Source: Telmatocola sphagniphila
Lineage (GTDB): Bacteria > Planctomycetota > Planctomycetia > Gemmatales > Gemmataceae
Reading direction: 5' to 3'
Length of the DNA stretch: 32,000 nt
NCBI RefSeq assembly: GCF_018398935.1
Contig: NZ_CP074694.1
Coordinates: forward strand, 2,700,001-2,732,000
Shown here one piece after another: positions 7,654-32,000 of the stretch. A program made the translations under genes and the position numbers. The notes beneath the pieces were generated by a model, which saw only the letters and a program-made list of their open reading frames with translations, was not told the DNA's origin and made no database searches. Numbering within the stretch: the first letter of the stretch is position 1; each line of letters starts with the position of its first letter.

Positions 7654-7701
7654 CAAATTTCTTCCCGAGTTCCGTCGGCCATCCCTGATCTACTGAGGCA
7701 G

Positions 7702-7729: not shown

Positions 7730-7751
7730 AAACTTGATACTTTCGATGAAA

Positions 7752-9910: not shown

Positions 9911-9915
9911 AATTT

Positions 9916-18092: not shown

Positions 18093-19459
18093 TCGACACG
18101 AATGAAATGCCCAACGGGTCCTCGATGGCCGCGGTGGCGCCCATCCTGTCCGAAAGGGTGAAACAGCTCCAACTCCATGGCCGAATGGAAGGAGACAAGC
18201 GGGGCGGGTCGAACGCCTTTTTGCCCTGGTTGCTTTGCATTTTGATGGCCATTGCCTGGGCCAGCGTGGGCATTCGCTACTACAGGGCGAATCCCAATGC
18301 GAGTAACGCGGCTGCACCCAACGGCCCTTCAACTCCTCCGGGCGAGGCCCCGAAGGATTCCGCCGGTAATCCCATCAAAAAAGAAGCTCCCAAGCAAATT
18401 GCCCGGAATCCGGACGAACCCGTCCTGGACATGAAGGGGTACATCATCCCGGCCCATACCATCTCCGTCAGTCCGATCGAGGTCAGCGGTCGTATCGTCC
18501 GGCTGGAAATTGAGGAAGGAAAATCCTTCAAAAAAGACGACGTTCTCGCCGTCATTGATGACAGCAGCTTCCGGGCGGATCGGGACGAAGCCAAAGCGAA
18601 CTGGGATTCTCTGATCGAAAAAATGCGGGAGATGAAGAACGGCAACCGACCCGAAGAAATCGAGCAAGCTCGAGCCGAGTTACTGGAAGCGGAAGCCAAT
18701 TTGAAGGCGGCCCAACTGGAGTGGGAGCGCTATCAAGGGAAAAAAGTGGATGCCATTGCTCGAAAAGATTTCGACACCGTCGAAAGTTCTTATCGCGGCG
18801 GTCTGGCTCGAGTAGCCAAACTCCGCCAGAGCTTGCGTTTGATGGAACTGGGCCCCCGAGAAGAGAGAGTCAAAGGCGCTATCGCCGATGTGGACGCCGC
18901 GAAAGCCCGGCTCGACCGCGCCGAATGGCGTCTGAAAAATTGCACGATTTTCAGCCCCGTCGATGGGGTCATCCTTGCGAAACGGGCGGAAATCGGCAGC
19001 TTAATCAATCCCGTCGTGGGTGGTGTGGCCACCAGCCTTTGCGACATCGCCGATTTGTCGGACATCGAAGTCGATATGGAAATTCAGGAACGCGACGTTT
19101 CAAAAGTATTCGATGGCCAGTACTGTAAAATCAAGGCCGATGCGTTTCCCGAGCGGAGTTACGACGGTTATGTGGATCGCTCGATGCCGATTGCCAACCG
19201 AGCACGCGGGATCGTTCCCATTCGAATCAAAGTCGTCGTTCCTCCCACGGAAAAACAGGGGAAGTATCTGAAGCCCGACATGGGCGTGGCGGTGACCTTC
19301 TTCAACCAGCGATACGACAAGTGGCCCAACAAGTGGAATGTGCCGGTCGACCCGATCCCCGGTTCATTGGCCCCGGCCCCAGCGGCCGAGCCCAAGAGCA
19401 CTCCGCCAGCCGTCGAGCCCAAGAACCCAACACCTTCTGAATCCAAGAAAGCAGGCTGA
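18089..19459 (+). CDS. HlyD/MacA-type periplasmic adaptor (membrane fusion protein)
   Basis: The track ORF starts at 17999 inside the TetR gene. The ATG at 18089 (MIDTNEMPNG...) is coupled to the TetR stop and preceded by GGGGAGG. It has a TM (FLPWLLCILMAIAWASVGI), lipoyl halves, a coiled coil with RPEEIEQARAEL, a barrel, and a Pro-rich tail. Confidence 0.85.
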   Translation: MIDTNEMPNGSSMAAVAPILSERVKQLQLHGRMEGDKRGGSNAFLPWLLCILMAIAWASVGIRYYRANPNASNAAAPNGPSTPPGEAPKDSAGNPIKKEAPKQIARNPDEPVLDMKGYIIPAHTISVSPIEVSGRIVRLEIEEGKSFKKDDVLAVIDDSSFRADRDEAKANWDSLIEKMREMKNGNRPEEIEQARAELLEAEANLKAAQLEWERYQGKKVDAIARKDFDTVESSYRGGLARVAKLRQSLRLMELGPREERVKGAIADVDAAKARLDRAEWRLKNCTIFSPVDGVILAKRAEIGSLINPVVGGVATSLCDIADLSDIEVDMEIQERDVSKVFDGQYCKIKADAFPERSYDGYVDRSMPIANRARGIVPIRIKVVVPPTEKQGKYLKPDMGVAVTFFNQRYDKWPNKWNVPVDPIPGSLAPAPAAEPKSTPPAVEPKNPTPSESKKAG

Positions 19460-19462
19460 AAC

Positions 19463-20218
19463 GTGTTGTCAGGATCCCCAAACACCCTGGTCCGCGTTCA
19501 GGATTTATACAAGTCCTTCGTACGCGGCAACGAAGAGATCCAGGTTCTCAAGAAACTGACTCTGGAAGTGGCACGCGGCGAATTCCTCGCCTTGATGGGC
19601 CCATCCGGCTCGGGAAAAACGACCCTGCTGAATCTGATTGCCGGGCTCGATCAGCCGACCGGCGGCAGCATTACTGTGGACGGCGAAGTCATTTCAGAAA
19701 TGTCCGAAAGCCAACTGGCCCGATGGCGGACGCGCAACGTCGGCTTCGTGTTCCAGTTCTACTATCTTCTGCCGGTACTCACGGCTTATGAAAATGTGGA
19801 GCTGCCTTTGCTGCTCCTTCCCATGTCCAAGGAACAGCGCCGCAAGCAAGTCCTCACGGCCCTCGATCTCGTAGGGCTGTCCAGTCGCTTGACTCACCGC
19901 CCGGGGATGCTTTCCGGGGGGCAACAGCAGCGTGTCGGCATCGCCCGCGCCATGGTCACCGACCCCGCCCTGATCGTGGCCGACGAACCGACTGGGGACC
20001 TGGATTCCAAATCGGCCGATGAAATTCTGAAGCTGATGCAGATCTTGTGCGAACAGGTGAACAAAACGATCATCATGGTGACGCACGATCCGCACGCCGC
20101 CGAAAAGTCGCAACGGACTTTGCACCTGGATAAGGGCCGGCTAGTGGAAGATGATGACCGCACCCGGGCTTACATGCGGGAAACGCCTCCGAAAACCAAT
20201 CAGGAGGTGTTCACATGA
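19463..20218 (+). CDS. ABC transporter ATP-binding protein, MacB/LolD class
   Basis: Walker A is GPSGSGKTT, the signature is LSGGQQQRVGIARA, and Walker B is IVADEPTGDLD. The H-loop VTHD is also present. Confidence 0.9.
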   Translation: MLSGSPNTLVRVQDLYKSFVRGNEEIQVLKKLTLEVARGEFLALMGPSGSGKTTLLNLIAGLDQPTGGSITVDGEVISEMSESQLARWRTRNVGFVFQFYYLLPVLTAYENVELPLLLLPMSKEQRRKQVLTALDLVGLSSRLTHRPGMLSGGQQQRVGIARAMVTDPALIVADEPTGDLDSKSADEILKLMQILCEQVNKTIIMVTHDPHAAEKSQRTLHLDKGRLVEDDDRTRAYMRETPPKTNQEVFT

Positions 20219-22029
20219 TGCCCTACCCAGAGTTCACTTTCTTCGAAGGGATGCTGATTCTCTTCAAATTCCTGATGTTGGTCGTACTTCTTGCACTACT
20301 TGCAGCAGTCGTGACCATGCCGTTGTTCTTTGCCATCGTCACTTATATCTCGAAGTGGTTGGGTGCCAGAGAAGGCATGGACCGGACAACCGGATCGATC
20401 TTTTCGCGAACTTGCAATTTCCTGATCTGGATCGCGGTACCTTTGCTGAGTCTGTCCGGAACTGTATTCCTCCTGGGCTATTCGGGTGGCCTCGATGCTT
20501 TCAACTCGACGCATCCTCAGAAATCGGTAGCGAATCCGCGGCCCATCAAACGAGAGTTCGTCAACAAATTCGAGGATCTTACTCGTAATCTGACCGGCCA
20601 GGCAGAGTTGATCAGTCAGGCCAATTCAAAGCAGGAACTCACACCGGACGAAGAGCTTGAGAAAATCGGAGCGGAGAACTCGTTGAAAATGATGAGATCG
20701 GCGATTGTCTTTTTCATCTATCAAATCGGCCCTATTCCTCTGATCGTGATTCTCGCCGCGGTGATCTTCGGTCGGCGGAAGCTCCAGCTCATTGTTCGAA
20801 GTCTGAATAGAAATCCGCTGCGCACTTCGCTTATGTATGTGGCCATTTTCGTGCTGTCGTCCGTGCTGGCTTTGGTCTGGACGGTCCTGTCGTTCATCGA
20901 CGAAGTGACTACGGAGCAGGAAGGAACTCTAAAGGCCATTATCACCGAACGCTATCAAATTCCTTCTCAGCTAAAACCTACGCACGTTCGGGAACTGTGG
21001 CGATTGGTGGAACAGCTTCCTCCGGAAAATCGTCCGCAGAACGGCGACGACGACCTGATGACCTGGGCGTTTCTGGCGGGAACTCTCGACCCGAAAAATA
21101 AAACTGCTCAGAACTCCTTCTTCCTATTCTGCATGGAACCCCGAAAAGTTTTGACCATGCTCGACGGCCTGGAGGATCTCACGCAAGAGCAAAGGAAGAT
21201 GCTCGAAAAAGCCGCCGCCGCGATGGAAGAAAACAAGAAAGGTGTAGTGATAGGACTCGAAAAGCTGACGCAACTCGGGAAGCGCGTCGGCGATCGTATT
21301 CAATTGACGGGATTGAACTACACCGATCTGGTTTTCGATATGGAAATCGTTGGCACCTTCCCCGGTGGAACTCGCTACGACCAGAGCGCGGTTATGAATC
21401 GGGATTACCTTTATCAGGCTCTCGACCGGTACAAGGGGGAAAAAGGCAAAGAACATCCCATGGCGGACAAGTGCCTGAATCTGATCTGGCTGCGATTGCC
21501 CAACAAGCAGGCTTTCGATCAACTCGCTGAACTGGTCGACGCTTCGGGTCGCTTCAGCCCTTCCATTAAAATTGAAACCTCCTCGTCCGGGATCAGCACC
21601 TTCCTGGACGCTTACAAAGAAATTCTCTGGGGACTGCGCTGGATTCTGGCGCCCGTTCTGATGGGCACTATGATCCTGATCATTGCGGTAGCCATTAGCA
21701 TCAGCGTGCGCGAAAGGCGGACCGAAATGGCCGTCTTGAAAGTGCTGGGGTATCAACCGGGCACGATCATGCTGTTCGTGCTGGGTGAGGCAATCTTCAT
21801 CGGTATGCTTTCTGGCTTTCTGGCCATGTGTCTGATTGCCGTTCTGGTGAACGTGGGTATGGGTGGGGTGAACTTGAAAATTGCTTTCTTCGGGCGATTC
21901 TTCGTACCGAACGCGGCACTCTGGTGGGGCCCGGCACTCGGAACCTTTGCTTCTTTGGTGGGCAGTATCATACCGGCCCTGTCCGCCCGTTCGGTTAAAG
22001 TGACCGATGTATTTTCTCGAGTGGCTTAA
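20215..22029 (+). CDS. FtsX/MacB-type ABC permease with an extra N-terminal polytopic extension
   Basis: ATGA coupling and a GGAGG RBS. The canonical TM1 (NPLRTSLMYVAIFVLSSVLAL) is followed by a large periplasmic domain and a C-terminal FtsX block (RERRTEMAVLKVLGYQPGTIM...). About 190 aa with three or four hydrophobic helices precede TM1. Confidence 0.8.
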   Translation: MMPYPEFTFFEGMLILFKFLMLVVLLALLAAVVTMPLFFAIVTYISKWLGAREGMDRTTGSIFSRTCNFLIWIAVPLLSLSGTVFLLGYSGGLDAFNSTHPQKSVANPRPIKREFVNKFEDLTRNLTGQAELISQANSKQELTPDEELEKIGAENSLKMMRSAIVFFIYQIGPIPLIVILAAVIFGRRKLQLIVRSLNRNPLRTSLMYVAIFVLSSVLALVWTVLSFIDEVTTEQEGTLKAIITERYQIPSQLKPTHVRELWRLVEQLPPENRPQNGDDDLMTWAFLAGTLDPKNKTAQNSFFLFCMEPRKVLTMLDGLEDLTQEQRKMLEKAAAAMEENKKGVVIGLEKLTQLGKRVGDRIQLTGLNYTDLVFDMEIVGTFPGGTRYDQSAVMNRDYLYQALDRYKGEKGKEHPMADKCLNLIWLRLPNKQAFDQLAELVDASGRFSPSIKIETSSSGISTFLDAYKEILWGLRWILAPVLMGTMILIIAVAISISVRERRTEMAVLKVLGYQPGTIMLFVLGEAIFIGMLSGFLAMCLIAVLVNVGMGGVNLKIAFFGRFFVPNAALWWGPALGTFASLVGSIIPALSARSVKVTDVFSRVA

Positions 22030-22062
22030 TCCTCTTGGTCTAACTCCGATTAAAGGCGAATA

Positions 22063-24243
22063 ATGTCGGCTCTGGAAGAACAGATTGACGTAAAAACTCC
22101 TCCGCTTCCCAAGGGCCTTGAGCCCCTGCAAGACGATGAGGAGTCTTCGTTTTTGACCCGAATTCAAGACAACTTCGTGAAGCTGGCCAGCTTTTTGGCC
22201 AGCTTCATTCCCATGCCCGCAATTTTGCACTTCTGCCGGGCCGTTTCGCCCCGAACAGAATTAGAAATCGAAATGGATCCATTGCTCGGCCGACCGAGAA
22301 TTGTGTCGTTTCTGCTAGGAGTGATTTCCCTTTTCCTGCTGGTTTCCGCTTCGGCGTTCTTGGCATTTATCTCCTGGGGATTGCTCAATTACTTCGGGCG
22401 AAATCCTTTTAATGCAATCGCGGAATTGAGTGCGGACGATCTGAAAGCGGCTATTACGGGTATCGTTCAGGGCACGATCCCGTTTATTTACGCTCTCGAA
22501 TTCCTATCCATTTCGCAGCTCGAACATTTCCCTGATCATTTCCGCCAAATCGCCTGGTTCATCCAGAAACGTACGGCGATCCTGGGGAATCTCCTTTTGT
22601 TCGGACTTTCGCTGATCCCGCTCTCCGTTTTCATCATGGCCTTACCCATGGTTTTCCCGAATGAAGCCGTGCTCAGCGATACGATTCCCACTTATCGCAG
22701 TCGAATCGTCGGCCTGTTTCGTCGACTCATGGGGGCACTGACTGCTCTGGCCGTGCTGGTAATTCTGGTGGCCGTCTCGATTGAATTAGTTTCACTACTG
22801 AAGTTGCAAAAATCGTATGTCAGCCCGATTCCCGCCAAGATCTTCCCGCAGGCTTTTCTCGATCTGCTGCCGACGGTACTCGTGGAACAATGGCATTACG
22901 TGCTGATCTGCGTCTACCTGCTGGATATCGGCCTACTGCTGATCATTGGAAAAGTGCCGCTACGCTACAACATTCGAAACATCTCCGTCCGCTGGCTGAC
23001 GACCGCCATGACCGGACTAGCCTTCACGCTGGTCGTCGGATTGCTGATTCTGATGTTCTCGTTCGTAAACGGTTTGAACAAGGTCAGCAGCGAATCGGGA
23101 ATTCCCGGGAATGTCTTCGTACTCTCCGAGGGCTCCATCGACGAGACTTTCAGCAATCTCGGCTACAGCGACATCAACCAGATGGAGAACGAGCGGGCCG
23201 AGGAGGACCGTAGCGGCAGACCCCTCGCCAAATCGATTGGCATCAAGCAGGTCAACGTTCCCGGTTCCAGTAAGAAAGTTAAGCTAATCAGCAAAGAAAC
23301 TTACATTAGCGTGAACCACGAAGTGGCCGCTCGTCCCGGTTTTCCGATGCGGCATCGCCTATTGCCTGTCCGCGCCATCCAGGATGCCTGGGTCGCCGCC
23401 AAAGTCCATAACATGGAATTAATCGACGGGGAATGGTTCGACGATAAACCGCAACTCTCCGCCGACGGCAAGACGACTCTCACGCCTTGCGTCATGGGGG
23501 AAGCCGCTGCCCGTAAATTCGGTGAGGATGTTGGCAAACCCATCATGAAAATCGGAGACACGGTCAAACTCGGTGAGTTGAATATGGTCGTGGTGGGCAT
23601 CATGAAATCCGAAGGAACCACTTTTGGAAGTGAAGTCTGGACCCGCTGGGAACGGGCCACTCAAGCGTACAACAAAAAAACCTTCACCACCGTAGTGCTC
23701 CGAGTTGAAGACGACAAACCGGAAAGCGCTGAGATTATGGCTTATCACCTCAGCACCAATTTCAAAAATCCCCGAGTTCGCGCGGTGACCGAGACTCAGT
23801 ACTTCGAAGATCTTGCCAAGGGTAGCGCCGCTATCTTCACGGTGATTCTGGTCATTGCCGCCATCATGGCCATCGGCGGCATTTTCGGTGTGATGAATAC
23901 CATGTTTGCTACGGTGGCTCAGCGAGTCAAAGACATCGGCGTCCTTCGCATCCTCGGATTCAAACGCTGGCAGTTACTCATTAGCTTCATGCTGGAGACA
24001 CTATCGATAGCTCTTTTGGGAGGCCTCGTCGGCTGCCTGATCGGCTACTTCGCGGATGGCTTCAAAATGGATAGCACCCTCTCCAGCGGAAACGGTTCGA
24101 ATAAATCGGTCACCATTCGCCTGACCGTGGATATGACCATCATCGTTTGTGCGATTCTATTCACGCTGATTATGGGCCGTCTGGGCGGACTGGTGCCGTC
24201 GCTGTCGGCCATGCGGATGAAGATTCTCGACTCCCTGCGATAA
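22063..24243 (+). CDS. Second FtsX/MacB-type ABC permease with a long N-terminal polytopic extension
   Basis: TM1 (VRWLTTAMTGLAFTLVVGLLILMF), a periplasmic domain, and an FtsX block (AQRVKDIGVLRILGFKRWQLL...). About 300 aa with several TM helices precede TM1. Confidence 0.8.
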   Translation: MSALEEQIDVKTPPLPKGLEPLQDDEESSFLTRIQDNFVKLASFLASFIPMPAILHFCRAVSPRTELEIEMDPLLGRPRIVSFLLGVISLFLLVSASAFLAFISWGLLNYFGRNPFNAIAELSADDLKAAITGIVQGTIPFIYALEFLSISQLEHFPDHFRQIAWFIQKRTAILGNLLLFGLSLIPLSVFIMALPMVFPNEAVLSDTIPTYRSRIVGLFRRLMGALTALAVLVILVAVSIELVSLLKLQKSYVSPIPAKIFPQAFLDLLPTVLVEQWHYVLICVYLLDIGLLLIIGKVPLRYNIRNISVRWLTTAMTGLAFTLVVGLLILMFSFVNGLNKVSSESGIPGNVFVLSEGSIDETFSNLGYSDINQMENERAEEDRSGRPLAKSIGIKQVNVPGSSKKVKLISKETYISVNHEVAARPGFPMRHRLLPVRAIQDAWVAAKVHNMELIDGEWFDDKPQLSADGKTTLTPCVMGEAAARKFGEDVGKPIMKIGDTVKLGELNMVVVGIMKSEGTTFGSEVWTRWERATQAYNKKTFTTVVLRVEDDKPESAEIMAYHLSTNFKNPRVRAVTETQYFEDLAKGSAAIFTVILVIAAIMAIGGIFGVMNTMFATVAQRVKDIGVLRILGFKRWQLLISFMLETLSIALLGGLVGCLIGYFADGFKMDSTLSSGNGSNKSVTIRLTVDMTIIVCAILFTLIMGRLGGLVPSLSAMRMKILDSLR

Positions 24244-25849
24244 AACGCAAGGTCTGCCGGAACAGATCCGGCATGATCTTGCGCAATACCAGCAACATGA
24301 TCAAAGCCAGCACTCCAGCTGTCCCAAACAGATACGGTGGCAGCTTACGAAAATCGTAAGCGGACTTCGTCAGTCGCCCCTCTGGTGCCACCACCAGATG
24401 CTTCACGTTACCAATTCGATATTCCCAGACCGCCACGCGGCTGCCCGGCGTCACCCCGGAATCGATGGTGATGATTAACTGCTCGGCTTCCACCGGTCTA
24501 AAAATTCTCGAAACTACCGAAGCGACTTCTCCCGCTGGCTGACCATATTGAGTGATATTCTCCCCTTCCCCAAGGGTGACTTGAACCGGCCGACCTTCTC
24601 TCAACTCCACCTTCAGAAAGTTCTGGTTGGAAGCGAGTTCCTTCATTGCCACCTCTGGAGCCAGCTCGACCCTTTTCGATACGGCAACGCAACCGAGAAA
24701 GAGTACGGAGGAGAGCACAGCGCCTCCTACGTCCACAAAATTGCTGATCGCGAACATTTCGCCCTTACTGGTCCGTGCCGCGGAGTACTGAAGCAGTGAA
24801 AAGAGCGGCACCAGAAAGAAGCTGGTCGAAAAACCGATGAGCACCGTCGAGAAAATTAACCCACTCAAGGAGGCGGTGAACAGACTGGCCAGCAGGCACC
24901 CGATGGCAATGCCCAGGGCGCCGATCGGGATCAGACCCAGTTCGATTTTCTTACCCGATAGCCACCCCGCCAGCGGACAGCCCAGCCCCAGACCACACGC
25001 GACCGTCCCAACCACGGCACTGGTTTTCAATTCATCCCAGCGCGGGCTCTGGCTTTCGCCAAACATGTAGACGGTGGCCCGCAGAAAGGTCACGACGAAC
25101 GTAAAAAAGGCGATTCCCACGATGGCGAACAGCAAATCTCGGGTGGCCAATACGTGCCGAAAATTCTGAATCAAAGGAAAATAGATATATCTGGGAAATG
25201 GACGTTGGGGATTGGCCGCCGGAATTTTCTGAAGCTGCAGGCTGACGAAAAAGCCGATCAGTGCCAGCGATCCGAGGATGATACCAATTATCCATTCCGA
25301 GCCTTGAAACAGAAACGAAAAGACGCCGCCGCAGATGCTGCCGAGAATCGTTCCGAGGAAAGAAAACGATTCGAGATACCCGTTGCCTCGCGAGAGAAGT
25401 TCAGGTTCCAGGATTTCCGGCATGATGCCGTACTTAGCCGGACCGAAAAAAGCCGCGTGCATCCCCATGAAGAAGACAGTGGATAGAACCAGCGTCACTC
25501 CCTCCGCCTGGCCGAACCAGAATCCCGCTAAAGCGATCGCCGTGATGACAATTTCCGCCAGTTTCCAGAACACCAGCGCGTTGCGCTTGCTGTAGCGGTC
25601 GGCGAAGTAGCCCGCCAAGGTCACGAAGAGGAACCAGGGCGTATAGAACAGGACCGGCATCAGCGAGATCGCCTGTTCCTCGGTCAGTGTGCGGGAGTGA
25701 ATCGCAAAAAACATCGCCGAGGCGTTGATGGCCTGATCGTTGAACGCGGCCAGAAATTGAGAGACGATCAGTGCAAAAAATGTTCGATTTTTGAGCGTTT
25801 TAGAGAGGCTGGTTCGTTCTCGGGATGTCGAGAGAGACTCGTTCAGCAT
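24170..25849 (-). CDS. lplT: MFS transporter, LplT-like (lysophospholipid transporter), with a C-terminal extension of about 150 aa
   Basis: The N-terminus FFALIVSQFLAAFNDQAINASAMFFA...YFADRYSKRNALV resembles LplT-type MFS proteins. After the MFS core come a soluble segment and one more TM. The last 74 nt overlap the convergent permease gene. Confidence 0.65.
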   Translation of the reverse strand: MLNESLSTSRERTSLSKTLKNRTFFALIVSQFLAAFNDQAINASAMFFAIHSRTLTEEQAISLMPVLFYTPWFLFVTLAGYFADRYSKRNALVFWKLAEIVITAIALAGFWFGQAEGVTLVLSTVFFMGMHAAFFGPAKYGIMPEILEPELLSRGNGYLESFSFLGTILGSICGGVFSFLFQGSEWIIGIILGSLALIGFFVSLQLQKIPAANPQRPFPRYIYFPLIQNFRHVLATRDLLFAIVGIAFFTFVVTFLRATVYMFGESQSPRWDELKTSAVVGTVACGLGLGCPLAGWLSGKKIELGLIPIGALGIAIGCLLASLFTASLSGLIFSTVLIGFSTSFFLVPLFSLLQYSAARTSKGEMFAISNFVDVGGAVLSSVLFLGCVAVSKRVELAPEVAMKELASNQNFLKVELREGRPVQVTLGEGENITQYGQPAGEVASVVSRIFRPVEAEQLIITIDSGVTPGSRVAVWEYRIGNVKHLVVAPEGRLTKSAYDFRKLPPYLFGTAGVLALIMLLVLRKIMPDLFRQTLRFIAGSRESSSAWPTATAPVRPDGP

Positions 25850-25910: not shown

Positions 25911-25948
25911 TTGAAAGAGAGAAGCTACTCTGGGCCAGCCAGAGTAGC
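25911..25948 (-). terminator. Intrinsic terminator after the lipoprotein gene
   Basis: A perfect 10-bp stem, GCTACTCTGG / CCAGAGTAGC (25924..25948), with a 5-nt loop. On the minus strand it is followed by TTCTCTCTTTCAAAATC. Confidence 0.6.
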
Positions 25949-25958: not shown

Positions 25959-26627
25959 TCAGGATTTCGAATTGGTTTTTACCACTGCGTTTTTCGAATC
26001 GATCAGCTCGGGCTTGGCACCGGTCGAAGGCAAAGCATGATGGCTGTTCGCATACTCTTTCACCGCCGTATGATCAAGCGTTATCAAATCGCTCTGGGTG
26101 AAGTAGACGCTCTTGCCGTCTTTGGAACACCATCTCGCTTGCAATAAAATCTTGGACATATCCGGAGTGTAAGTGCTCCAGGGCAAATACATACTGTAGC
26201 CGGGGCCCACGAAATCCTTCTTCTCAAACTTGGGCAACACGGTTTCATCGAATCGCCATTGTTCCAGATGTCTCGGTTCGGGATTGCCGGGATTAGGAGT
26301 GTGATCGAACAGATCGATCACCAGAAGCCCTTCACTCACGTAGGGAACGCCGTAACCATTCTTAAACAGATAGACGCGACCGAGCAAACCAACGTTGAGC
26401 GTTCCGCCCGAGAGCGGATCAGGAGCCAGCGTGATACGATTGCTCCAGGTTGCGGTCATTCGGCCATCTTCACTCGGCTTTTTGTATTCTGAAGTTGAAG
26501 TGGAAGCCTGAGCCGCTTTTTCCGTCTTCGGAGCAGACAAGCAGCCGGTCATCCAAAGCGGAACGGCAGCCAGGGCCAGGCAGGCGGTTCGTCGATCCAT
26601 CGACTTCAGCTTAACGAGAGGTTCCAT
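25959..26627 (-). CDS. Small lipoprotein of unknown function, immediately downstream of the secretin
   Basis: The ATG at 26627 has an AAGGAGA (26641..26635) 7 nt upstream; the track start at 26657 is less likely. It has a signal peptide with lipobox (ACLALAAVPLWMTGC). The mature part has no motif I recognise. Confidence 0.75.
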   Translation of the reverse strand: MEPLVKLKSMDRRTACLALAAVPLWMTGCLSAPKTEKAAQASTSTSEYKKPSEDGRMTATWSNRITLAPDPLSGGTLNVGLLGRVYLFKNGYGVPYVSEGLLVIDLFDHTPNPGNPEPRHLEQWRFDETVLPKFEKKDFVGPGYSMYLPWSTYTPDMSKILLQARWCSKDGKSVYFTQSDLITLDHTAVKEYANSHHALPSTGAKPELIDSKNAVVKTNSKS

Positions 26628-26657: not shown

Positions 26658-26695
26658 TCACAAAAAGTCTCGAGCCTTAGACAAAGCCCGAGACT
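26658..26695 (-). terminator. Terminator/attenuator-like hairpin between the secretin and lipoprotein genes
   Basis: On the minus strand, AGTCTCGGGC...GCTCGAGACT forms a stem of about 10 bp including one G-U pair, followed by TTTTGTGAA. It lies 12 nt after the secretin TAA. Confidence 0.5.
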
Positions 26696-26706: not shown

Positions 26707-29700
26707 TTACTTGCTACCGGAATCGGTCGCCGATTTACCGTTCGCTCCGATTGTCAGAATCGGAGGCACATCGGCCTTCGTGCTGGATGTCACCGGAATC
26801 TCAGGTTTTGCGGCCGCCGGGGCTTCCAGTTTCGGTGCAGCCGTGTCTGGCTTGGAGGCAGACGGCATCGCTGCCGGATCCGATTGCTTCATATTAATCG
26901 GCAGCATCGTATCCACCGATTCAGCAAAGGTTTCTGGTGGCAGAGGCTTGCCGTGTTTATCCTTACCCAGCGGTCTGACGGGAGCCGCGGAACGCAAGTT
27001 GGTTGCTTCCGGATTCATTGAATAGATATCCTTCAGATTCCAGTTCAGCTTGCTCGTCTCCCGCATGGTTACGCGACGTTGATCTTCCTCACTCCGGATA
27101 ATGGTAGGAGTCAAGATCATGACCAACTCGGTCTTGGCAATCGTCTGAGTTCGGAACCGGAACAGCGTGCCGATATAGGGAAGATCGCCCAGGATTGGCA
27201 CTTTATTCTCGTTACGAGTGTTCGACTTCGAGAGTAAGCCGCCCAGAACGATAGTTTCACCATCGGAAGCCAGAACAGTCGTTTGGATAGCCTGCACATC
27301 GAACGCCGTCGCAAATGTACCGTTCCCCAGGGAGACCAGTGAAGCGACGGGAGACGATATCGACGGCTCAACACGCATCAGGATCTTGCCATCGGGACTG
27401 ATACGTGGCGTCACCTTCAAGTTAACACCCGTATCCGTGGTCGAGAGCAAGGGAGTATAAACTCCCGTTAGGCTGTTGGTCGTAAACCCGGTCACTGTCG
27501 GATACTTCTGACCCACTTGGACTGCAGCGGTCTGATTGTTCACCGTCTGCAGGCTCGGGCAGTTCATGATGTCGATGCGGCCCTGCTGCTTCAGAGCACG
27601 CACCAGAACGTTGAGGGTGTCGCTACCCGCGGAGAAGACGAAGCCACCCACCCCACTGGAGTTGGTTCGCCCCACACCGAGATTGCTCAACCCCTGGAAG
27701 CCGACCGTAGCCGGTTTGTAGAGCGTCGAAACACCCGTGTTACTCGACGATCCCGGCAGGAAGCCCGCGCCACTGCCAAAGTTAAAGCTCCCGACTTGGG
27801 AAGCCGTGTTTACCGTGAGGGTATTGCTGGTGGCCAGGCCGCTATTCCCGTTGATCCCCGTAACACTTGTAGTGCCAGTCGCGGGTATCAAAGATCGATT
27901 GAACAATACGGGGCTTTGCATGCCGATTTCGACACCAAACTCCTCGTTATTATTCAGCGTTACTTCGGCGATCATCACGCTGATGTGCACCGTTTCGGGA
28001 GCGGAATCCAACTCCCGAATAATCGTCATGATCTGTTCATAGTAATCGCGGGTGCAGCTGATCACGAGTTTATTGGTGACCGGTTCCGCTGTAATCACCA
28101 GGTTCCGCTGGAAGACCTGGAAGTTCGAGTAGTAATTCGAACCCTGATAGATGGCCAGTGTGTTGGTCACATAGGTCGTCAGCGTGGTCGCAATATCCGA
28201 GGCCGCGGCATTGCGGCACTCGTAGACGATATCGACCCGTTGCGAAATTTCAGACGCTTCGAGTTTGGCGATGAGGGCCGCAATCGTATCCAAATCGTTC
28301 TGAGTACCGACTGCGACGATCGAGTTGGTTCGATCGTCCACGGCCAGACGCAGGTCGAGCAGGTTCGCACCGTCACCCACCTGACCGGTGATTGTCAACA
28401 ACGGTCGATTCAGGTTCTGAGTAGAACTTCCACTGGTGGTGCCACCAAAGCTAGTACCTGTTCCTACACCCGTCGCGCCGCCACCACCACCGCCGCCACC
28501 ACCGTTAGCACCCCCGGTGCGATTGGCACCGGTAGTTCCGCTCGAAGCAAACATTTGCTGAATCAGCGTGGCCGTGTTGACGGCATCCGCTCTTCGCAGC
28601 GGGAAAACCTTAACATTGGCCTGCACCGCGGAAACCGTGTCCATATCCTGGATCAACTTCATTAGAAGATCCATCGTTTTCGTCGGGGCCGAAATGATAA
28701 TCGTGTTGGTTCGAGGATCGGCGTTCAAGTGAACGTCTTCCAGCAAGCCGGTTTCCAGAGGATTGCCCGGTCCGTTCGGGAAGAAGCGGATCGAGGTCGA
28801 CTTGGTAGTCAGACCCACAAGAGCCGTATCGGTCGCCGCCGAGCTGCCGGTGGTTCCGGTAGTGCCGCCCGCACCCCCCAGCGTTCCGCCGGGTCGATTC
28901 TGAGCGTTTCCACCGAGGGCGTTGCCACCAAATGCTCCGGCAGCACCGCCACCTCCACCGAAGGCGCCGCCAGCTCCCCCAGTAGTCGTCGCCAGGTTCA
29001 ACAGCCCGGTCGGACCATTGGACTGTACGATGCTGGGTGTCAAGGAGCGAATCAACAGGTCGGCCAGGTCGGCAGCGATGGCGTTACGAACCTTGACGAT
29101 TCGCAGATCGTTCACCGCACTCGATACGCTGTTATCCAGTGCATCGATGAGGTTCTTCACTTCCTCCATGTCGGTCGGGCTGGCCTGGACGATCACCTGG
29201 TTACTGCTGCTGTCGTAGGTGATACGAACCTGGTCTTGAGTACCGGTTTCTGCCGGATAGCGCTGATTGAAGAAGTTCTGGATCGTAATAGCCGCGTTCT
29301 GAGCGCTGGCCTTCTTCAGCATGAAGCTGCGCGGCGACATCTGAGGACTACCCGGCTGATCGAGCTGTTCGACTCGCTTCCTGAGCTCCGGGAGGGTCGC
29401 CGCCGGGGCGGAAACCAAAATTGCATTGAAGCGAGGCAGAGCCAGCAGGAAGATCGAGCCGGTCAATTGCTGTTGCTGCTGATTGAAACCACCGAAGGCC
29501 GATCCGCCGCGGTTAACCGTCGGATCGTTCGGCGTATAGCCGTTGAGCCCCAACGGTACGTTCTGAAGCAGCGACTTCAGCGTATTGGTGACCACCGTGG
29601 CATCCCCCACCTTGAGGGGGATGATATCCACTTTCTGCTCAGCCTTCTTGACCTGTTCCTGGATGATCTTGATGACCTCCAGGGCAATGGCCAAGTCCTG

Positions 29701-32000
29701 AGGATTGCCGGCGGTGATGATACCGCCGCCCAACTGAGGCAGCGGTTCGAAGAACACGCTGGATCGAGTTTGGGGAACCGTATTCGGGCTATTCACCAGC
29801 GGTTGGTTGCCCTGTTGGGAGAGCCCGCCTAACTTCGGCTGTGGGTTGAAGTTAGGGTTTGTGTTCTGTTGCGGCCGACCTTGCACTGGGGTTTGGCCAG
29901 ACGTCAGCAGGAATTCCGAGGAACGACCTCCATTGAGGATGAAATCATCGAGTTTTTCGGGTTCGAACTTGGCCACACCTTGCAGCCGTTCGAAAGAAGG
30001 ATCATAAAGGAGCTTGCTCCCCTGGTCTTCCATGACCTGGGAATCAAAAAAATTGGGGCCCTCCGCTCCTGGCCGTTCGGGTTGTCTGCCGCCGGGTCTC
30101 ATGCCGCCGCCGCCGCCACCGGGGCCGCCACGACCTCCGCCGCCTCCGCCGGGACCGCCGCCACCGCCGGGACCACCCCCGCCACCAAAGCCGCCACGAC
30201 CTCCGCCGCCACCGCCGGGACCACCCCCGCCGCCGCCGAAGCCGCCACCACCTTGGCCACCGCCGCCGAAACCGCCACCGCCGCCGCCAAAGCCACCACC
30301 ACCACCGCCAAAGCCGCCACCGCCGAAGCCACCGCCGCCGAAGCCACCGCGGCCGGTCTGAGTATTACGATTCACGTAGCGGCCCTGCATGGCATCAATA
30401 GCCTGCTGGACGACGAACGGATCAATCCCGGAAATTTGCAGGAACTGTACCTGCTTCGTGGCATCCTTCGCCTTGGAGTCGAGGTTTTCGCAGAGCGTGC
30501 GAATGTTCTCGTACATCGGCTGCGAGCAGTTGACGATGATCGAGTTCGATCGGTCGTCGACGCTGATGTTCATCTGATTCTTGAGAATCACGTTCGAGCG
30601 CGGCGTCCCGAAAGGAGACGGGAACAGCGAAGGCGGCTGACTCGAAAGGGTCGATTGAGTGTCCTTATAAATGTCGCGGATAACTGAAGCGACATCGCTG
30701 GCGACCGCATATTTCAGCTCGATGTAATGCGTCTTGAGGAAGCCTTCTTCCTCATTCGGCCCATCGATGGCATCCTTCAAAATCGCTTTGATCGTTAGGA
30801 ATTCGAGTGCGGAAGCGCGAATGAGCAAGCTATTGGTTTCGGGGTAAGCCAGCACTCGCACTTTGTTCTTAGCCGCGGCGGCAGCTGCCGCCGCGGCGGA
30901 TTGGTTCATTGCCGCATTAGCATTGAAGCCACTGAAGGGATTGCCTTGACCTCCGCCAAATCCGCCGCCCCCCTGGCCACCGCCAAAACCGCCGCCGCCG
31001 CGGTTACCGCCCCCACCACCGCCGCCGAAGAAGGGAAAACCTCCACTTTGCTGAGGTGTGTTTTGTTGCGGTCCGGTGACAGGAGTACCGTTGAACCAGC
31101 TATCGATGAACTTGGCCGCTTCAACGGAATTGCCGTTCTTCAGTCGGATGACCCGGAAATCATGCTCTCCGGGAGCCGCCGTCAGCATGCTGACGAGTTC
31201 GCGAACCAATTGCTGAGTCTGCGGATCGTCGGAGGTCACAATGATTTTGGAGCCGACCGGGGTGATTGTCACCGGTGGACCGCTGACCTTCGGCTTCTGC
31301 GTATCGGGCTTCTGGGGATCGACCAGCTGAGGTTGCTGGGAGACCAGATAGAAATTGGCATCAATGGTGTCGCCGGAGCTGATCTTCTTCGGCTGGGGAG
31401 GCATGCTCTGTTTCGGATCGACTTTGGGCATCGGCGGAGCATTTGGCTCTTCGAAGCTCGGCCGAACCAGTTTGGAATCCTTACCCATTTCCTGAAGCAT
31501 CTTGTTCAGGGTTTCGCCCAGTTGGAGCGAACTGCCGCCTTCGATGCTGATGATGCGTACGTTGCCCAGCGAAGCGGGGTTGCCGGAATCACCCCGCAGC
31601 TGCTTCATGGTCAATTCGACTTCCGCAACGAGCTGAGGAGTCCCCTTAGTCAGAATGCCCGTTTCCACGGCCCTGACGACCAGTCCGCCCCCTTTGATCG
31701 CTTCGGGGAAGATGTCCTTCAGCAAGCTTTCCATTTTGCTGAGGTCGTATCCGCCTGCATCGATAATCTTGGTCTGGACCTGCTGCTTTCCTTTCGTCAG
31801 CATCTCGGTAATGTCGAAGTGATCCTGGGTCGAGCCGTAGACCATTAATTGACCGTTGACGGCCGCGACTTTGACGACGGTAGAAGTCTTGTAAATTGTC
31901 GAGAGAGTGCCCGCAAGGGCCTCCGCACTGCCGGCCGGTACATCATAGTACATGACGTACGGATTGGAGCTGTCATTATCGATGAGCTTCTTGGTGCCAA
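26707..32000 (-). CDS. Giant secretin-family outer-membrane channel protein, 5'-truncated by the window edge
   Basis: It has a C-terminal secretin core (VHISVMIAEV..., VLVRALKQQGRIDIMNCPSLQTVNNQTAAVQVG, GVNLKVTPRISPDGKI, NKVPILGDLPYIGTLFRFR...TELVMILTP). Seven clear and about three degenerate secretin N-domain repeats precede it (..DDRTNSIVAVG....IAKLE type). The frame stays open upstream of the track's Met (…GTKKLIDNDSSNPYV-M) to base 32000. Confidence 0.85.
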   Translation of the reverse strand, partial: GTKKLIDNDSSNPYVMYYDVPAGSAEALAGTLSTIYKTSTVVKVAAVNGQLMVYGSTQDHFDITEMLTKGKQQVQTKIIDAGGYDLSKMESLLKDIFPEAIKGGGLVVRAVETGILTKGTPQLVAEVELTMKQLRGDSGNPASLGNVRIISIEGGSSLQLGETLNKMLQEMGKDSKLVRPSFEEPNAPPMPKVDPKQSMPPQPKKISSGDTIDANFYLVSQQPQLVDPQKPDTQKPKVSGPPVTITPVGSKIIVTSDDPQTQQLVRELVSMLTAAPGEHDFRVIRLKNGNSVEAAKFIDSWFNGTPVTGPQQNTPQQSGGFPFFGGGGGGGNRGGGGFGGGQGGGGFGGGQGNPFSGFNANAAMNQSAAAAAAAAAKNKVRVLAYPETNSLLIRASALEFLTIKAILKDAIDGPNEEEGFLKTHYIELKYAVASDVASVIRDIYKDTQSTLSSQPPSLFPSPFGTPRSNVILKNQMNISVDDRSNSIIVNCSQPMYENIRTLCENLDSKAKDATKQVQFLQISGIDPFVVQQAIDAMQGRYVNRNTQTGRGGFGGGGFGGGGFGGGGGGFGGGGGGFGGGGQGGGGFGGGGGGPGGGGGGRGGFGGGGGPGGGGGPGGGGGGRGGPGGGGGGMRPGGRQPERPGAEGPNFFDSQVMEDQGSKLLYDPSFERLQGVAKFEPEKLDDFILNGGRSSEFLLTSGQTPVQGRPQQNTNPNFNPQPKLGGLSQQGNQPLVNSPNTVPQTRSSVFFEPLPQLGGGIITAGNPQDLAIALEVIKIIQEQVKKAEQKVDIIPLKVGDATVVTNTLKSLLQNVPLGLNGYTPNDPTVNRGGSAFGGFNQQQQQLTGSIFLLALPRFNAILVSAPAATLPELRKRVEQLDQPGSPQMSPRSFMLKKASAQNAAITIQNFFNQRYPAETGTQDQVRITYDSSSNQVIVQASPTDMEEVKNLIDALDNSVSSAVNDLRIVKVRNAIAADLADLLIRSLTPSIVQSNGPTGLLNLATTTGGAGGAFGGGGGAAGAFGGNALGGNAQNRPGGTLGGAGGTTGTTGSSAATDTALVGLTTKSTSIRFFPNGPGNPLETGLLEDVHLNADPRTNTIIISAPTKTMDLLMKLIQDMDTVSAVQANVKVFPLRRADAVNTATLIQQMFASSGTTGANRTGGANGGGGGGGGGATGVGTGTSFGGTTSGSSTQNLNRPLLTITGQVGDGANLLDLRLAVDDRTNSIVAVGTQNDLDTIAALIAKLEASEISQRVDIVYECRNAAASDIATTLTTYVTNTLAIYQGSNYYSNFQVFQRNLVITAEPVTNKLVISCTRDYYEQIMTIIRELDSAPETVHISVMIAEVTLNNNEEFGVEIGMQSPVLFNRSLIPATGTTSVTGINGNSGLATSNTLTVNTASQVGSFNFGSGAGFLPGSSSNTGVSTLYKPATVGFQGLSNLGVGRTNSSGVGGFVFSAGSDTLNVLVRALKQQGRIDIMNCPSLQTVNNQTAAVQVGQKYPTVTGFTTNSLTGVYTPLLSTTDTGVNLKVTPRISPDGKILMRVEPSISSPVASLVSLGNGTFATAFDVQAIQTTVLASDGETIVLGGLLSKSNTRNENKVPILGDLPYIGTLFRFRTQTIAKTELVMILTPTIIRSEEDQRRVTMRETSKLNWNLKDIYSMNPEATNLRSAAPVRPLGKDKHGKPLPPETFAESVDTMLPINMKQSDPAAMPSASKPDTAAPKLEAPAAAKPEIPVTSSTKADVPPILTIGANGKSATDSGSK
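30104..30351 (-). repeat. Longest Gly-rich low-complexity tract of the secretin, with internal DNA repeats
   Basis: It encodes (GGF/GGGG/GPGG/GRGG)n over roughly 80 codons. The 33-nt unit gccgccacgacctccgccgccNccgccgggacc occurs at 30124 and again at 30190, 66 nt apart, with one mismatch. Shorter Gly tracts lie at about 28431-28540, 28846-28993 and 30940-31050. Confidence 0.8.

What the first reader, a model, noticed from the sequence alone, without database searches (positions are those of the whole stretch)
26707..32000. Giant secretin (over 1760 aa) with about ten N-domains whose internal loops are expanded into Gly-rich tracts
Classical T2SS, T4P and T3SS secretins carry 2-4 periplasmic N-domains. 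Here I count seven clear repeats ending in the D-x-R-T/S-N-S-I-I-V...L-I-x-x-L-D signature, plus about three degenerate ones, and the gene is still open at the window edge. In at least four repeats the beta1-alpha1 half is separated from the beta2-beta3-alpha2 half by long G/F/P/R/T tracts. An example is HDFRVIRLKNGNSVEAAKFIDSWF…[Gly tract]…KVRVLAYPETNSLLIRAS. The low-complexity regions are therefore insertions within domains rather than linkers. After the secretin core, a C-terminal tail of about 130 aa rich in Pro, Ala and Lys may be a pilotin or peptidoglycan contact region. No ATPase, pilin or platform genes lie downstream within the window. This implies a very long periplasmic conduit with disordered, possibly gel-like rings. 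The cargo and function are unknown.
Basis: partly seen in the sequence, partly recalled or inferred. Interest (0 to 1): 0.7.

Follow-up and report, generated by a model that had tools for sequence, protein, structure and literature searches.

The report
Giant type II secretin, glycine-rich loops
This is the outer-membrane channel protein of a type II secretion system from the planctomycete Telmatocola sphagniphila, stretched to about 2,000 residues by a stack of at least 11 ring-forming domains, seven of which carry long floppy internal loops (four glycine-rich), probably so that the channel can span this group's very wide periplasm.

Summary
The minus-strand ORF 26707-31998 gives 1763 codons and is still open at the window edge.

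- **Secretin identity:** it has a C-terminal secretin pore and scores above NCBI's GspD equivalog cut-off.
- **Domain count:** Pfam, AlphaFold2 and profile-profile comparison together resolve 11 beta-alpha-beta-beta-alpha N-domains in the window.
- **Missing part:** colinear relatives start about 265-340 residues earlier, with an N0-like region and about two more N-domains.
- **Low-complexity tracts:** they lie inside the domains, in the alpha1-beta2 loop. Seven domains have loops of 29-210 aa. Linkers between domains are 2-8 aa and almost invariant in length across 36 homologues.
- **Source:** the downstream lipoprotein is 100% identical to a Telmatocola sphagniphila (Gemmataceae) protein.
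- **Partner machinery:** in three of four relatives examined, the orthologous secretin closes a gspE-F-G-H-I-J-K-(L/M-like) operon and, where downstream sequence was available, is followed by the same lipoprotein. The partner is therefore a type II secretion system lying beyond the window edge.
- **Distribution:** many-N-domain secretins are widespread in Planctomycetota, with up to 45 N-domains in one metagenomic protein. The Gly/Phe-rich loop expansion looks specific to the Gemmataceae family.
- **Open question:** the role of the loops is untested.

I found no paper describing this family. I rate it a new variant of a known kind.

The parts
26707..32000 (-). Giant GspD-type secretin gene, 3' part. 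It gives 1763 codons plus a stop, and the 5' end lies beyond the window edge.
   Evidence: Translation. Pfam Secretin_N x7 plus Secretin. TIGR02517 GspD scores 383.3 bits against a cut-off of 351.35. Colinear with relatives of 1882-2093 aa starting at their residue 276-342.
31792..31959 (-). N-domain A (aa 14-69), with no insert.
   Evidence: AF2 beta-alpha-beta-beta-alpha topology, pLDDT 84-93. Pfam is weak at 13.8 bits. hhalign to domains C and D gives 96%.
31594..31776 (-). N-domain B (aa 75-135), with no insert and invisible to Pfam.
   Evidence: AF2 beta-alpha-beta-beta-alpha topology. hhalign to domains D, G and J gives 94%. No Pfam hit.
31180..31560 (-). N-domain C (aa 147-273), with a 65-aa Pro/Lys/Gln-rich alpha1-beta2 insert (aa 178-242).
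   Evidence: Pfam envelope aa 147-272 matches profile positions 1-63. AF2. Composition.
30766..31155 (-). N-domain D (aa 282-411), with a 77-aa Gly/Ala/Phe-rich insert (aa 304-380, nt 30859-31089).
   Evidence: Pfam 28.8 bits spanning the insert. AF2. 35% Gly and 7 FG/GF dipeptides.
30466..30735 (-). N-domain E (aa 422-511), with a 29-aa Ser/Pro-rich insert.
   Evidence: Pfam 40 bits. AF2.
29641..30453 (-). N-domain F (aa 516-786), split by a roughly 210-aa insert (aa 538-747, nt 29758-30387). The insert contains the longest poly-Gly/Phe/Arg tract and a conserved PNFFD..VMED..LYDP motif (nt 29995-30057).
   Evidence: AF2 gives E516-521 and H527-537, then a disordered stretch, then E748-753, E758-763 and H766-786. 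The two halves have pLDDT 80-89. The de-looped profile matches domain G at 85-93% over 62 columns. F651, D666 and P667 are invariant. Imperfect DNA tandem repeats lie at 30107-30355.
29362..29637 (-). N-domain G (aa 788-879), with a 37-aa insert.
   Evidence: Pfam 35.1 bits. AF2.
29131..29331 (-). N-domain H (aa 890-956), with no insert.
   Evidence: Pfam 42.1 bits. AF2.
28642..29109 (-). N-domain I (aa 964-1119), with a 103-aa Gly/Thr/Ala-rich insert (aa 987-1089).
   Evidence: Pfam envelope aa 966-1120 matches profile positions 2-64. AF2.
28255..28617 (-). N-domain J (aa 1128-1248), with a 65-aa Gly/Thr-rich insert (aa 1152-1216).
   Evidence: Pfam best stretch aa 1129-1247 matches profile positions 1-64. 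AF2.
28009..28239 (-). N-domain K (aa 1254-1330), the N3-equivalent next to the pore, with a short loop.
   Evidence: Pfam 37.9 bits. It aligns to the N3 domain of E. coli GspD 5wq7, including that domain's roughly 20-aa alpha1-beta2 loop.
27049..27993 (-). Secretin pore domain (aa 1336-1650), with a low-confidence Gly/Ser/Thr-rich stretch at aa 1353-1472.
   Evidence: PF00263 at aa 1468-1635, E 2.4e-43. The best solved relatives are GspD 5wq7 and 6hcg, E about 1e-40. AF2 long beta-strands.
26710..27048 (-). C-terminal Pro/Ala/Lys-rich tail (aa 1651-1763). It has two short helices and is then disordered.
   Evidence: AF2 pLDDT below 50 from about aa 1683. P14, A14 and K10%. Length is 85-378 aa in relatives.
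25959..26627 (-). Conserved lipoprotein gene immediately downstream (222 aa from the NCBI start). It is a candidate pilotin-like partner.
   Evidence: 100% identical to Telmatocola sphagniphila KIH39_10800. Homologous genes (28-36% identity, invariant T-G-C lipobox) follow the giant secretin in Tuwongella, G. obscuriglobus and a metagenome contig. No Pfam or NCBIfam hit.

Best explanation

**Shown here:**
- The C-terminal ~315 aa (aa 1336-1650) are a canonical secretin pore domain.
- That domain is preceded in the window by 11 ring-building beta-alpha-beta-beta-alpha N-domains. Linkers between them are 2-8 aa and nearly invariant in length.
- Orthologues have about two further N-domains and an N0-like region upstream.
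- Seven of the 11 N-domains have their alpha1-beta2 loop expanded to 29-210 aa of predicted disordered sequence. Four loops are Gly-rich, with Phe as the only enriched hydrophobic residue and almost no Asp, Glu or Lys.

**Inferred from known secretins.** The protein assembles as a ring of about 15 subunits. Its N-domains stack into a rigid periplasmic tube, roughly 45-55 nm long. This would let the outer-membrane pore reach the inner-membrane GspE/F/L/M platform and pseudopilus across the enlarged planctomycete periplasm.

**Inferred, low confidence.** The expanded loops occupy the same site as the variable N3 loop of InvG, pIV and GspD. In those proteins that loop is disordered, projects into the lumen as a periplasmic constriction, and is pushed aside by the substrate. 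Here the loops would form a series of soft seals along the long tube. The seals would yield to, or be extruded between rings by, the pseudopilus and its folded cargo.

**Candidate partner.** The conserved lipoprotein encoded just downstream is a candidate pilotin or accessory protein.
For: **Secretin and GspD identity**
- Pfam Secretin and Secretin_N hits.
- TIGR02517 scores above its cut-off, while the PilQ and SctC models score below theirs.
- The best solved relatives are GspD chains.
- Foldseek matches the N-terminal model to secretin N-domain arrays.

**Eleven domains with inserts inside them**
-.

**T2SS partner**
- Orthologues in Tuwongella immobilis, a metagenome contig and a MAG lie at the end of gspE-F-G-H-I-J-K-(L/M-like) operons.

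**Source organism**
-.

**Loop-site homology**
- The alignment to E. coli GspD N3 places its roughly 20-aa loop at the same alpha1-beta2 position.
- The InvG N3 variable loop is disordered, forms the lumen constriction and moves out between N3 and N1 when the needle is present (PMC6155069).
- The disordered N3 loop of pIV points into the pore (PMC8563730).
- The D. radiodurans secretin has a 59-aa unresolved gap in N3 (PMC10828601).

**Long stacks that bridge a wide periplasm**
- The precedent is Thermus PilQ, with six rings (PMC5745081).

**Evidence of selection on the loops**
- Their sites, composition and an internal motif are conserved across more than 100 diverged homologues.
Against: - The window does not show the 5' end of the gene or any T2SS gene. 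Linkage is inferred from relatives. In Gemmata obscuriglobus the orthologue is not next to T2SS genes.
- The T. sphagniphila secretin protein is absent from the protein collection, where only a frameshifted short-read fragment exists. I could not confirm that the unseen 5' part is intact.
- Oligomeric state, ring stacking, tube length and loop orientation are not computed here.
- A rough volume estimate assumes a 15-mer, a 7-nm lumen and 3.5-nm rings. Under those assumptions, if all 586 loop residues per subunit were lumenal, they would fill about two thirds of the tube. That is hard to reconcile with passage of folded cargo unless the loops are expelled or many lie outside.
- No GspC or N0 Pfam match was found in the relatives examined.
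Confidence: 0.85

Rival explanations
1. The Gly-rich loops lie on the outside of the ring stack rather than in the lumen. There they would act as a flexible coat, spacer or anchor. They might contact peptidoglycan, neighbouring complexes or the invaginated inner membrane, or cushion a long tube in a deformable periplasm.
For: The volume estimate shows the lumen could barely hold all the loops. In the needle-bound InvG the homologous loop threads out between rings (PMC6155069). Planctomycete periplasm is enlarged and irregular (PMC11131199; PMC8567305).
Against: In the resting state of InvG and in pIV the homologous loop points into the pore. No peptidoglycan-binding domain or motif was detected. 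Orientation was not computed.
Confidence: 0.3
2. The low-complexity tracts have no specific function. They are slippage-driven expansions of GGN repeats at a permissive surface loop and are merely tolerated.
For: The tracts are imperfect tandem DNA repeats with periods of 12-66. Their length varies two- to three-fold between relatives, and the total of Gly-rich residues per protein ranges from 0 to 434. A short-read assembly of the same organism has a frameshift in one tract.
Against: The tracts recur at the same four loops across homologues of only 33-47% identity. Their composition is constrained, with Phe 2.2-fold enriched and D/E/K each below 1%. A nearly invariant motif (F651, D666, P667) sits in the middle of the largest insert. 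Poly-N secretins of other Planctomycetota lack them entirely, so they are a lineage-specific, retained feature.
Confidence: 0.15
3. It is a type IV pilus secretin (PilQ), or another non-T2SS secretin, rather than GspD.
For: Gemmataceae encode many type IV pilus genes, including PilQ/RcpA (PMC7397252). The secretin core also matches PilQ models and PilQ structures.
Against: TIGR02515 PilQ scores 204 bits against a cut-off of 284, while TIGR02517 GspD passes its cut-off. There are no AMIN domains. Orthologues follow gspG-H-I-J-K, including the T2SS-specific GspK, and a GspE that scores best as GspE.
Confidence: 0.05
4. The long ORF is a sequencing or assembly artefact or a pseudogene. For example, it could be a chimera of repeats, and it may not encode a functional protein.
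For: The exact protein is not in the large protein collection although its neighbour is. Short-read contigs break or shift frame in the Gly tracts.
Against: There are 5.3 kb of uninterrupted frame through four GGN-rich tracts. The ORF is colinear over about 1700 residues with many independent full-length relatives from isolates and metagenomes. AF2 models every domain confidently.
Confidence: 0.05

Closest known systems
GspD secretins of proteobacterial type II secretion systems (E. coli 5wq7, Klebsiella PulD 6hcg, Vibrio 5wq8, Pseudomonas XcpQ 5wln)
   Same: It has the same C-terminal pore domain (E about 1e-40) and the same beta-alpha-beta-beta-alpha N-domain fold. The last N-domain aligns to N3, including a loop at the alpha1-beta2 site. 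It passes the TIGR02517 cut-off. The operon partners gspE-K are present in relatives.
   Different: It is about 2,000 aa against about 650 aa. It has 11 N-domains in the window (about 13 in the full protein) against 3, plus N0. Seven loops are expanded to 29-210 aa. No recognisable N0 or GspC Pfam match was found in relatives. It has a long Pro-rich tail, and a different conserved lipoprotein replaces the known pilotins.
Thermus thermophilus PilQ, and the Deinococcus radiodurans secretin DR_0774 (8co1)
   Same: These are secretins whose extra stacked N-domain rings let the complex span an unusually wide periplasm (PMC5745081). 8co1 is the top Foldseek match to the N-terminal model. DR_0774 has a 59-aa unresolved insert in N3.
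   Different: Those have six rings (Thermus), or four N-domains plus a flange domain (Deinococcus). Thermus PilQ serves type IV pili and DNA uptake. Neither has Gly/Phe-rich loops repeated in ring after ring.
InvG (T3SS secretin) N3 variable loop
   Same: It is a disordered loop between the two halves of an N-domain. It forms a soft constriction in the lumen and is displaced when the substrate fills the channel (PMC6155069).
   Different: InvG has one loop of about 50 aa in one ring, and it is not Gly-rich. Here seven rings carry such loops, totalling 586 aa per subunit. I inferred that the sites are equivalent from residue arithmetic and from the GspD alignment. I did not superpose the structures.
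Uncharacterised poly-N-domain secretins of other Planctomycetota
   Same: They have many stacked Secretin_N domains before a secretin core. Examples are 14 in a Planctomycetales MAG and a Phycisphaeraceae MAG, and 45 plus N0 in a 4404-aa metagenomic protein.
   Different: The three loci checked (L013-L015) have about 5-7% Gly and no Gly tracts. Some sit next to giant proteins made of N-domains only, with no pore.
Cohesive FG (GLFG-type) domains of nucleoporins
   Same: The resemblance is in composition only. The tracts are disordered and dominated by Gly, with Phe as the enriched hydrophobe, plus Gln/Asn/Thr and very few charged residues. They are anchored on a ring scaffold around a transport channel.
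   Different: There is no homology. The tracts here are far richer in Gly (53%) and include RGG-like elements. No phase behaviour or selectivity has been tested, and loop orientation is unknown.

Membership tests
GspD (type II secretion system secretin) | C-terminal secretin pore domain (PF00263) | tested here: met
   PF00263 at aa 1468-1635, E 2.4e-43. GspD chains are the best PDB matches.
GspD (type II secretion system secretin) | Periplasmic beta-alpha-beta-beta-alpha N-domains (PF03958) preceding the core | tested here: met
   Seven Pfam stretches. Eleven by AF2 and hhalign.
GspD (type II secretion system secretin) | Score above the curated equivalog cut-off of TIGR02517 | tested here: met
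   383.3 bits against a cut-off of 351.35.
GspD (type II secretion system secretin) | N-terminal N0 domain that docks on GspC | tested here: inconclusive
   It lies outside the window. Relatives have a conserved region of about 90 aa after the signal peptide, but it has no Pfam or PDB sequence match. A 4404-aa distant relative does match type_II_gspD_N0.
GspD (type II secretion system secretin) | Encoded with, and working with, gspE/F and the pseudopilins gspG-K | tested here: inconclusive
   It cannot be seen in the window. It is met in three of four relatives examined and not in G. obscuriglobus.
GspD (type II secretion system secretin) | Forms a gated multimeric (about 15-mer) outer-membrane channel that exports folded proteins | not testable with these tools
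   It needs cryo-EM or cryo-ET and secretion assays.
GspD (type II secretion system secretin) | C-terminal S-domain bound by a pilotin lipoprotein (in many but not all GspDs) | tested here: inconclusive
   There are two short helices after the core and then a disordered Pro-rich tail. A conserved lipoprotein is encoded downstream, but it matches no known pilotin family.
PilQ (type IV pilus secretin) | Score above the TIGR02515 cut-off, AMIN domains and a pilMNOP context | tested here: not met
   204.2 bits against a cut-off of 284.35. There is no AMIN hit. Relatives have a gsp context, not a pilMNOP context.
SctC (type III secretion secretin) | Score above the TIGR02516 cut-off | tested here: not met
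   141.7 bits against a cut-off of 238.45.
FG-nucleoporin-like selective barrier (functional analogy only) | Disordered, cohesive Phe/Gly-rich domains that fill a channel and form a selective phase | tested here: inconclusive
   Composition and predicted disorder are met. Lumenal location, cohesion and selectivity cannot be tested with these tools.

The most novel reading that the evidence does not exclude
The Gly/Phe/Arg-rich loops, repeated in ring after ring of a roughly 50-nm secretin tube, form a cohesive disordered phase inside the channel. This would be a bacterial, independently evolved analogue of the FG-nucleoporin permeability barrier. It would seal a very long periplasmic conduit while letting the pseudopilus-driven cargo through. 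A further speculation is that such complexes of about 3 MDa are some of the ring-shaped crateriform or pore-like structures seen in Gemmataceae envelopes.
Probability: 0.15. Interest if true: 0.85.

Novelty: new variant of a known kind. Interest (0 to 1): 0.6.

Why it matters
**Structural extreme.** Secretins are among the best-studied bacterial outer-membrane machines, and their periplasmic part is usually 2-4 rings. Six rings in Thermus was called one of the largest such systems characterised. A conserved family with about 13 rings, a third of whose mass is disordered loop inserted into the ring domains, stretches that picture. So do the relatives with 14-45 rings found in passing.

**Planctomycete cell biology.** The family gives a concrete molecular handle on how planctomycetes run trans-envelope machines across an enlarged periplasm.

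**Possible new mechanism.** If the loops line the lumen, this would be a new way of gating or sealing a secretion conduit.

**Tractable experiments.** Relatives occur in cultivable species (Tuwongella immobilis, Gemmata obscuriglobus, Fimbriiglobus ruber, Telmatocola sphagniphila).

**Annotation.** The Gly tracts break short-read assemblies, so these genes are likely under-annotated.

Tried and rejected
1. **Misaligned N-terminus.** My first full-length MAFFT alignment in the sandbox mis-registered the N-terminus. It suggested that only about 53 residues were missing. Pairwise BLASTP, the tool alignments and the exhaustive search show about 265-400 are missing. I rejected the earlier figure.
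2. **Half-domain HMMs.** Models for beta1-alpha1 and for beta2-beta3-alpha2 confirmed the alternating pattern for domains D-K. They were too weak for A, B, C and F. The pooled gap statistics were noisy, so I replaced them with anchor-column measurements.
3. **Fetching sequence beyond the window edge.**
   - An exact look-up of the 232-aa ORF failed because the start codon was wrong.
   - Two genome-contig scans did not find the source genome.
   - Look-ups of the exact lipoprotein returned only a 923-bp short-read contig.
   - A search with the first 300 window residues returned only a frameshifted fragment.
   - The same-organism upstream region therefore remains unseen.
5. **Literature searches.** Searches covered giant or planctomycete secretins, crateriform structures plus secretin, T2SS/GspD in Planctomycetes, and the Gemmata pore-like-structure and Tuwongella proteome papers. 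None describes this family.
6. **Context of other poly-N secretin loci.** Pfam scans around L014 and L015 found nothing informative except a Tad/VWA protein.
7. **Linker reading.** I considered the Gly tracts as inter-domain linkers and rejected that reading.
Full report
**1. What is in the sequence**

The minus strand from 31998 to 26707 reads as one frame of 1763 codons ending in a stop. No in-frame stop precedes it, so the gene runs off the window.

The region has 54-62% G+C and the protein is 13.8% Gly. Four tracts exceed 40% Gly over 30-residue windows. At the DNA level these are imperfect tandem repeats of GGN-type codons with periods of 12-66.

**2. It is a GspD-type secretin**

- Pfam gives Secretin_N (7 stretches, E 4e-69) and Secretin (aa 1468-1635, E 2.4e-43).
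- NCBIfam's GspD equivalog TIGR02517 scores 383.3 bits, above its cut-off of 351.35. The PilQ, SctC, MshL and HofQ models all score below theirs.
- The nearest solved sequences are GspD chains (5wq7, 6hcg, 5wln, 5zdh). The alignment runs through the last two N-domains and the pore.
- Foldseek on the predicted N-terminal half returns secretin N-domain arrays. The first is the Deinococcus secretin 8co1, followed by GspD chains.

**3. How many N-domains, and where the tracts lie**

Pfam scans of single segments gave these results:

| Domain | Pfam result |
|---|---|
| D, E, G, H, I, J, K | at or above the gathering score |
| A, C | weak |
| B, F | nothing |

The envelopes cover profile positions 1-2 to 52-67 while spanning 80-155 residues. 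The profile itself therefore places the extra sequence inside the domain.

AlphaFold2 was run with 36 homologues as the alignment. It gives eleven consecutive beta-alpha-beta-beta-alpha units:

| Domain | Residues |
|---|---|
| A | 14-69 |
| B | 75-135 |
| C | 147-273 |
| D | 282-411 |
| E | 422-511 |
| F | 516-786 |
| G | 788-879 |
| H | 890-956 |
| I | 964-1119 |
| J | 1128-1248 |
| K | 1254-1330 |

Structured elements have pLDDT of 80-93. Everything between alpha1 and beta2 in C, D, E, F, G, I and J is below 50.

I removed the loops from the family alignments and compared the domain profiles:
- D, E, G, H, I, J and K recognise each other at 95-99% probability over about 60 columns.
- A matches C and D at 96%.
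- B matches D, G and J at 94%.
- F matches G at 85-93% over 62 columns.

F is therefore a real N-domain split by about 210 residues.

Lengths measured across 36 homologues:

| Element | Length range (aa) | Gly content |
|---|---|---|
| Ten inter-domain linkers | 2-8, several with no length variation | not applicable |
| Loop D | 26-74 | 36% |
| Loop F | 100-238 | 33% |
| Loop I | 56-117 | 27% |
| Loop J | 34-70 | 29% |

In the window protein the seven loops add up to 586 residues, a third of the protein.

I pooled the Gly-rich windows over 121 proteins:
- Gly makes up 53%.
- Phe makes up 7.2%. It is 2.2-fold enriched and is the only other enriched residue.
- Arg makes up 4.7%.
- Asp, Glu and Lys are each below 1%.

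A nearly invariant motif (PNFFD..VMED..LYDP; F651, D666 and P667 are invariant) sits in the middle of loop F.

**4. What is missing from the window**

BLASTP is colinear over about 1700 residues. It aligns window residue 13 to residue 276, 308 and 342 of three full-length relatives. The exhaustive search gives residue 305-430 for most relatives.

The family consensus and one translated relative show what lies there:
- a signal peptide;
- a conserved region of about 90 aa with no Pfam match, possibly N0-like;
- two further N-domains, one of which has its own Gly-containing insert.

The full protein is therefore about 2,050-2,150 aa, with about 13 N-domains plus the N-terminal region.

An earlier sandbox alignment suggested only 53 residues were missing. 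That alignment was mis-registered and I discarded it.

**5. Source and partners**

The ORF just downstream (25959-26627, minus strand) is 100% identical to a hypothetical lipoprotein of Telmatocola sphagniphila, locus tag KIH39_10800. This species belongs to Gemmataceae, Gemmatales, Planctomycetota.

The rest of the window holds no T2SS or pilus gene. It holds an MFS transporter, a TetR/HlyD/MacB-type ABC cluster, an acyltransferase/AMP-ligase fusion, a SpoU-type methyltransferase (PF00588), unusual M50/PqqD/HlyD and WD40/HlyD fusion proteins, HipA pieces and an IS66 transposase.

More than 200 homologues of 1,900-2,400 aa were found. Named ones come from Tuwongella, Fimbriiglobus and Gemmata. 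At 50% clustering there are 191 clusters with E of 1e-30 or better.

Context of the orthologue in relatives:
- In Tuwongella immobilis, a metagenome contig and a MAG, it is preceded by GspE, GspF, GspG, GspH, GspI, GspJ, GspK and two L/M-like proteins.
- In Gemmata obscuriglobus it stands apart from such genes.
- In all three relatives with downstream sequence, the next gene is a homologue of the window's lipoprotein, with an invariant T-G-C lipobox.

I could not fetch that DNA for T. sphagniphila itself.

**6. Mechanism**

*Shown:* the domain architecture, the loop positions, predicted disorder, conservation of the sites and composition, and T2SS linkage in relatives.

*Inferred from established secretin biology:*
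- The pore domain forms a multimeric gated double barrel.
- N-domains joined by short, fixed linkers stack as rings.
- The f1 pIV secretin measures 96 Å from its extracellular face to the N-terminus of its N3 domain (PMC8563730). I assume about 3-3.5 nm per further ring from general knowledge. The tube would then be roughly 45-55 nm long.
- That length fits the enlarged periplasm of planctomycetes (PMC11131199). Thermus PilQ is the precedent: its six rings span a wide periplasm (PMC5745081).

*The loop site corresponds to the alpha1-beta2 loop of N3:*
- In E. coli GspD it is about 20 aa and aligns to the loop of domain K.
- In pIV a disordered N3 loop points into the pore.
- In InvG the variable loop (residues 217-265) forms the periplasmic constriction. 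When the needle is present it threads out between N3 and N1.
- In the Deinococcus secretin 59 residues of N3 are unresolved.

My preferred reading (about 35-40%) is a series of soft lumenal seals that yield to the pseudopilus and cargo.

A rough volume estimate assumes a 15-mer, a 7-nm lumen and 11 rings of 3.5 nm. Under these assumptions the loops would fill about two thirds of the lumen. They would have to be expelled on transport, or many of them lie outside. The external coat or anchor model is therefore nearly as likely (about 30%). Neutral repeat expansion is less likely, given the conservation described above.

**7. Comparison and novelty**

The protein is a member of the secretin superfamily and, by the curated model and the synteny in relatives, a GspD.

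It differs from described GspDs in several ways:
- It is about three times longer.
- It has about four times as many ring domains.
- Its variable loop is expanded in seven rings.
- It has a Pro-rich tail.
- It has a distinct conserved downstream lipoprotein.

Secretins of other Planctomycetota have 14 Secretin_N domains. One metagenomic protein has 45 plus N0. The many-ring design is therefore a wider, apparently undescribed theme. The three other Planctomycetota loci checked (L013-L015) have about 5-7% Gly and no Gly tracts. The Gly/Phe loops thus mark the Gemmataceae family.

Databases label these proteins as GspD or as secretin N-terminal domain-containing proteins. I found no paper that analyses them. 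A Planctopirus essential-gene study highlights a T2SS-like operon with planctomycete-specific genes (PMC10632474).

**Verdict.** The object is a new variant of a known kind, of moderate to high interest.

Noticed in passing
window 25959-26627 (-): A conserved lipoprotein gene follows the giant secretin here. The same holds in Tuwongella, G. obscuriglobus and a metagenome contig (28-36% identity, invariant T-G-C lipobox). It matches no Pfam or NCBIfam family and is a candidate new pilotin or accessory protein. It identified the source as Telmatocola sphagniphila.
   Followed up: partly
L014 2-6817 and 6857-12301; L015 2558-10801 and 11039-16006: In a Planctomycetales MAG and a Phycisphaeraceae MAG, a secretin with 14 Secretin_N domains is preceded by a giant protein (at least 2271 aa and 2747 aa). 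That protein has 19 Secretin_N domains and no pore domain. A pore-less stack of ring domains next to a secretin is unexplained.
   Followed up: partly
P0233 (4404 aa) and P0231 (5131 aa), metagenomic proteins: P0233 has 45 Pfam Secretin_N stretches plus a GspD N0 domain and a secretin core. P0231 matched the query in 32 stretches. These are far more extreme than the window protein. No taxon names were available.
   Followed up: partly
window about 30950-31030 (Gly tract of domain D); P0123: A short-read (Logan) assembly of the same organism yields a 233-aa fragment. It is identical to the window protein until it shifts frame inside the Gly tract. The contig carrying the lipoprotein is only 923 bp. 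The full secretin protein is absent from the protein collection. GGN tracts evidently break assembly or annotation of this gene.
   Followed up: partly
window 29995-30057 (-), aa 648-668: A conserved motif, PNFFD..VMED..LYDP, sits in the middle of the otherwise disordered 210-aa insert of domain F. F651, D666 and P667 are invariant in 36-76 homologues. AF2 predicts only a short helix next to it, and its role is unknown.
   Followed up: no
window 26666-26695 (-) and 25924-25948 (-): Terminator-like hairpins with T-runs lie directly after the secretin stop and after the lipoprotein stop. The first lies in the 79-nt gap before the lipoprotein start, so the two genes may not be strictly co-transcribed.
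   Followed up: no
window 5410-12060 (-): Three large consecutive genes. The first is a 748-aa fusion of PqqD, peptidase M50 and HlyD-like parts. The second is a 689-aa fusion of an HlyD barrel-sandwich with a WD40 propeller. The third is a 714-aa protein with no family match. The combination is unusual and may be a peptide-processing or export module.
   Followed up: no
window 17352-24243 (+) and 24170-25849 (-): A cluster of TetR, an HlyD-family adaptor, an ABC ATPase and two long FtsX/MacB-type permeases (604 and 726 aa). The last permease overlaps the 3' end of a convergent 559-aa MFS gene by 74 bp.
   Followed up: no
window 1035-2414 (+) and 3288-4612 (+): An IS66-family transposase, and a HipA toxin split into an N-terminal (108 aa) and a C-terminal (333 aa) ORF that overlap by 4 nt.
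   Followed up: no
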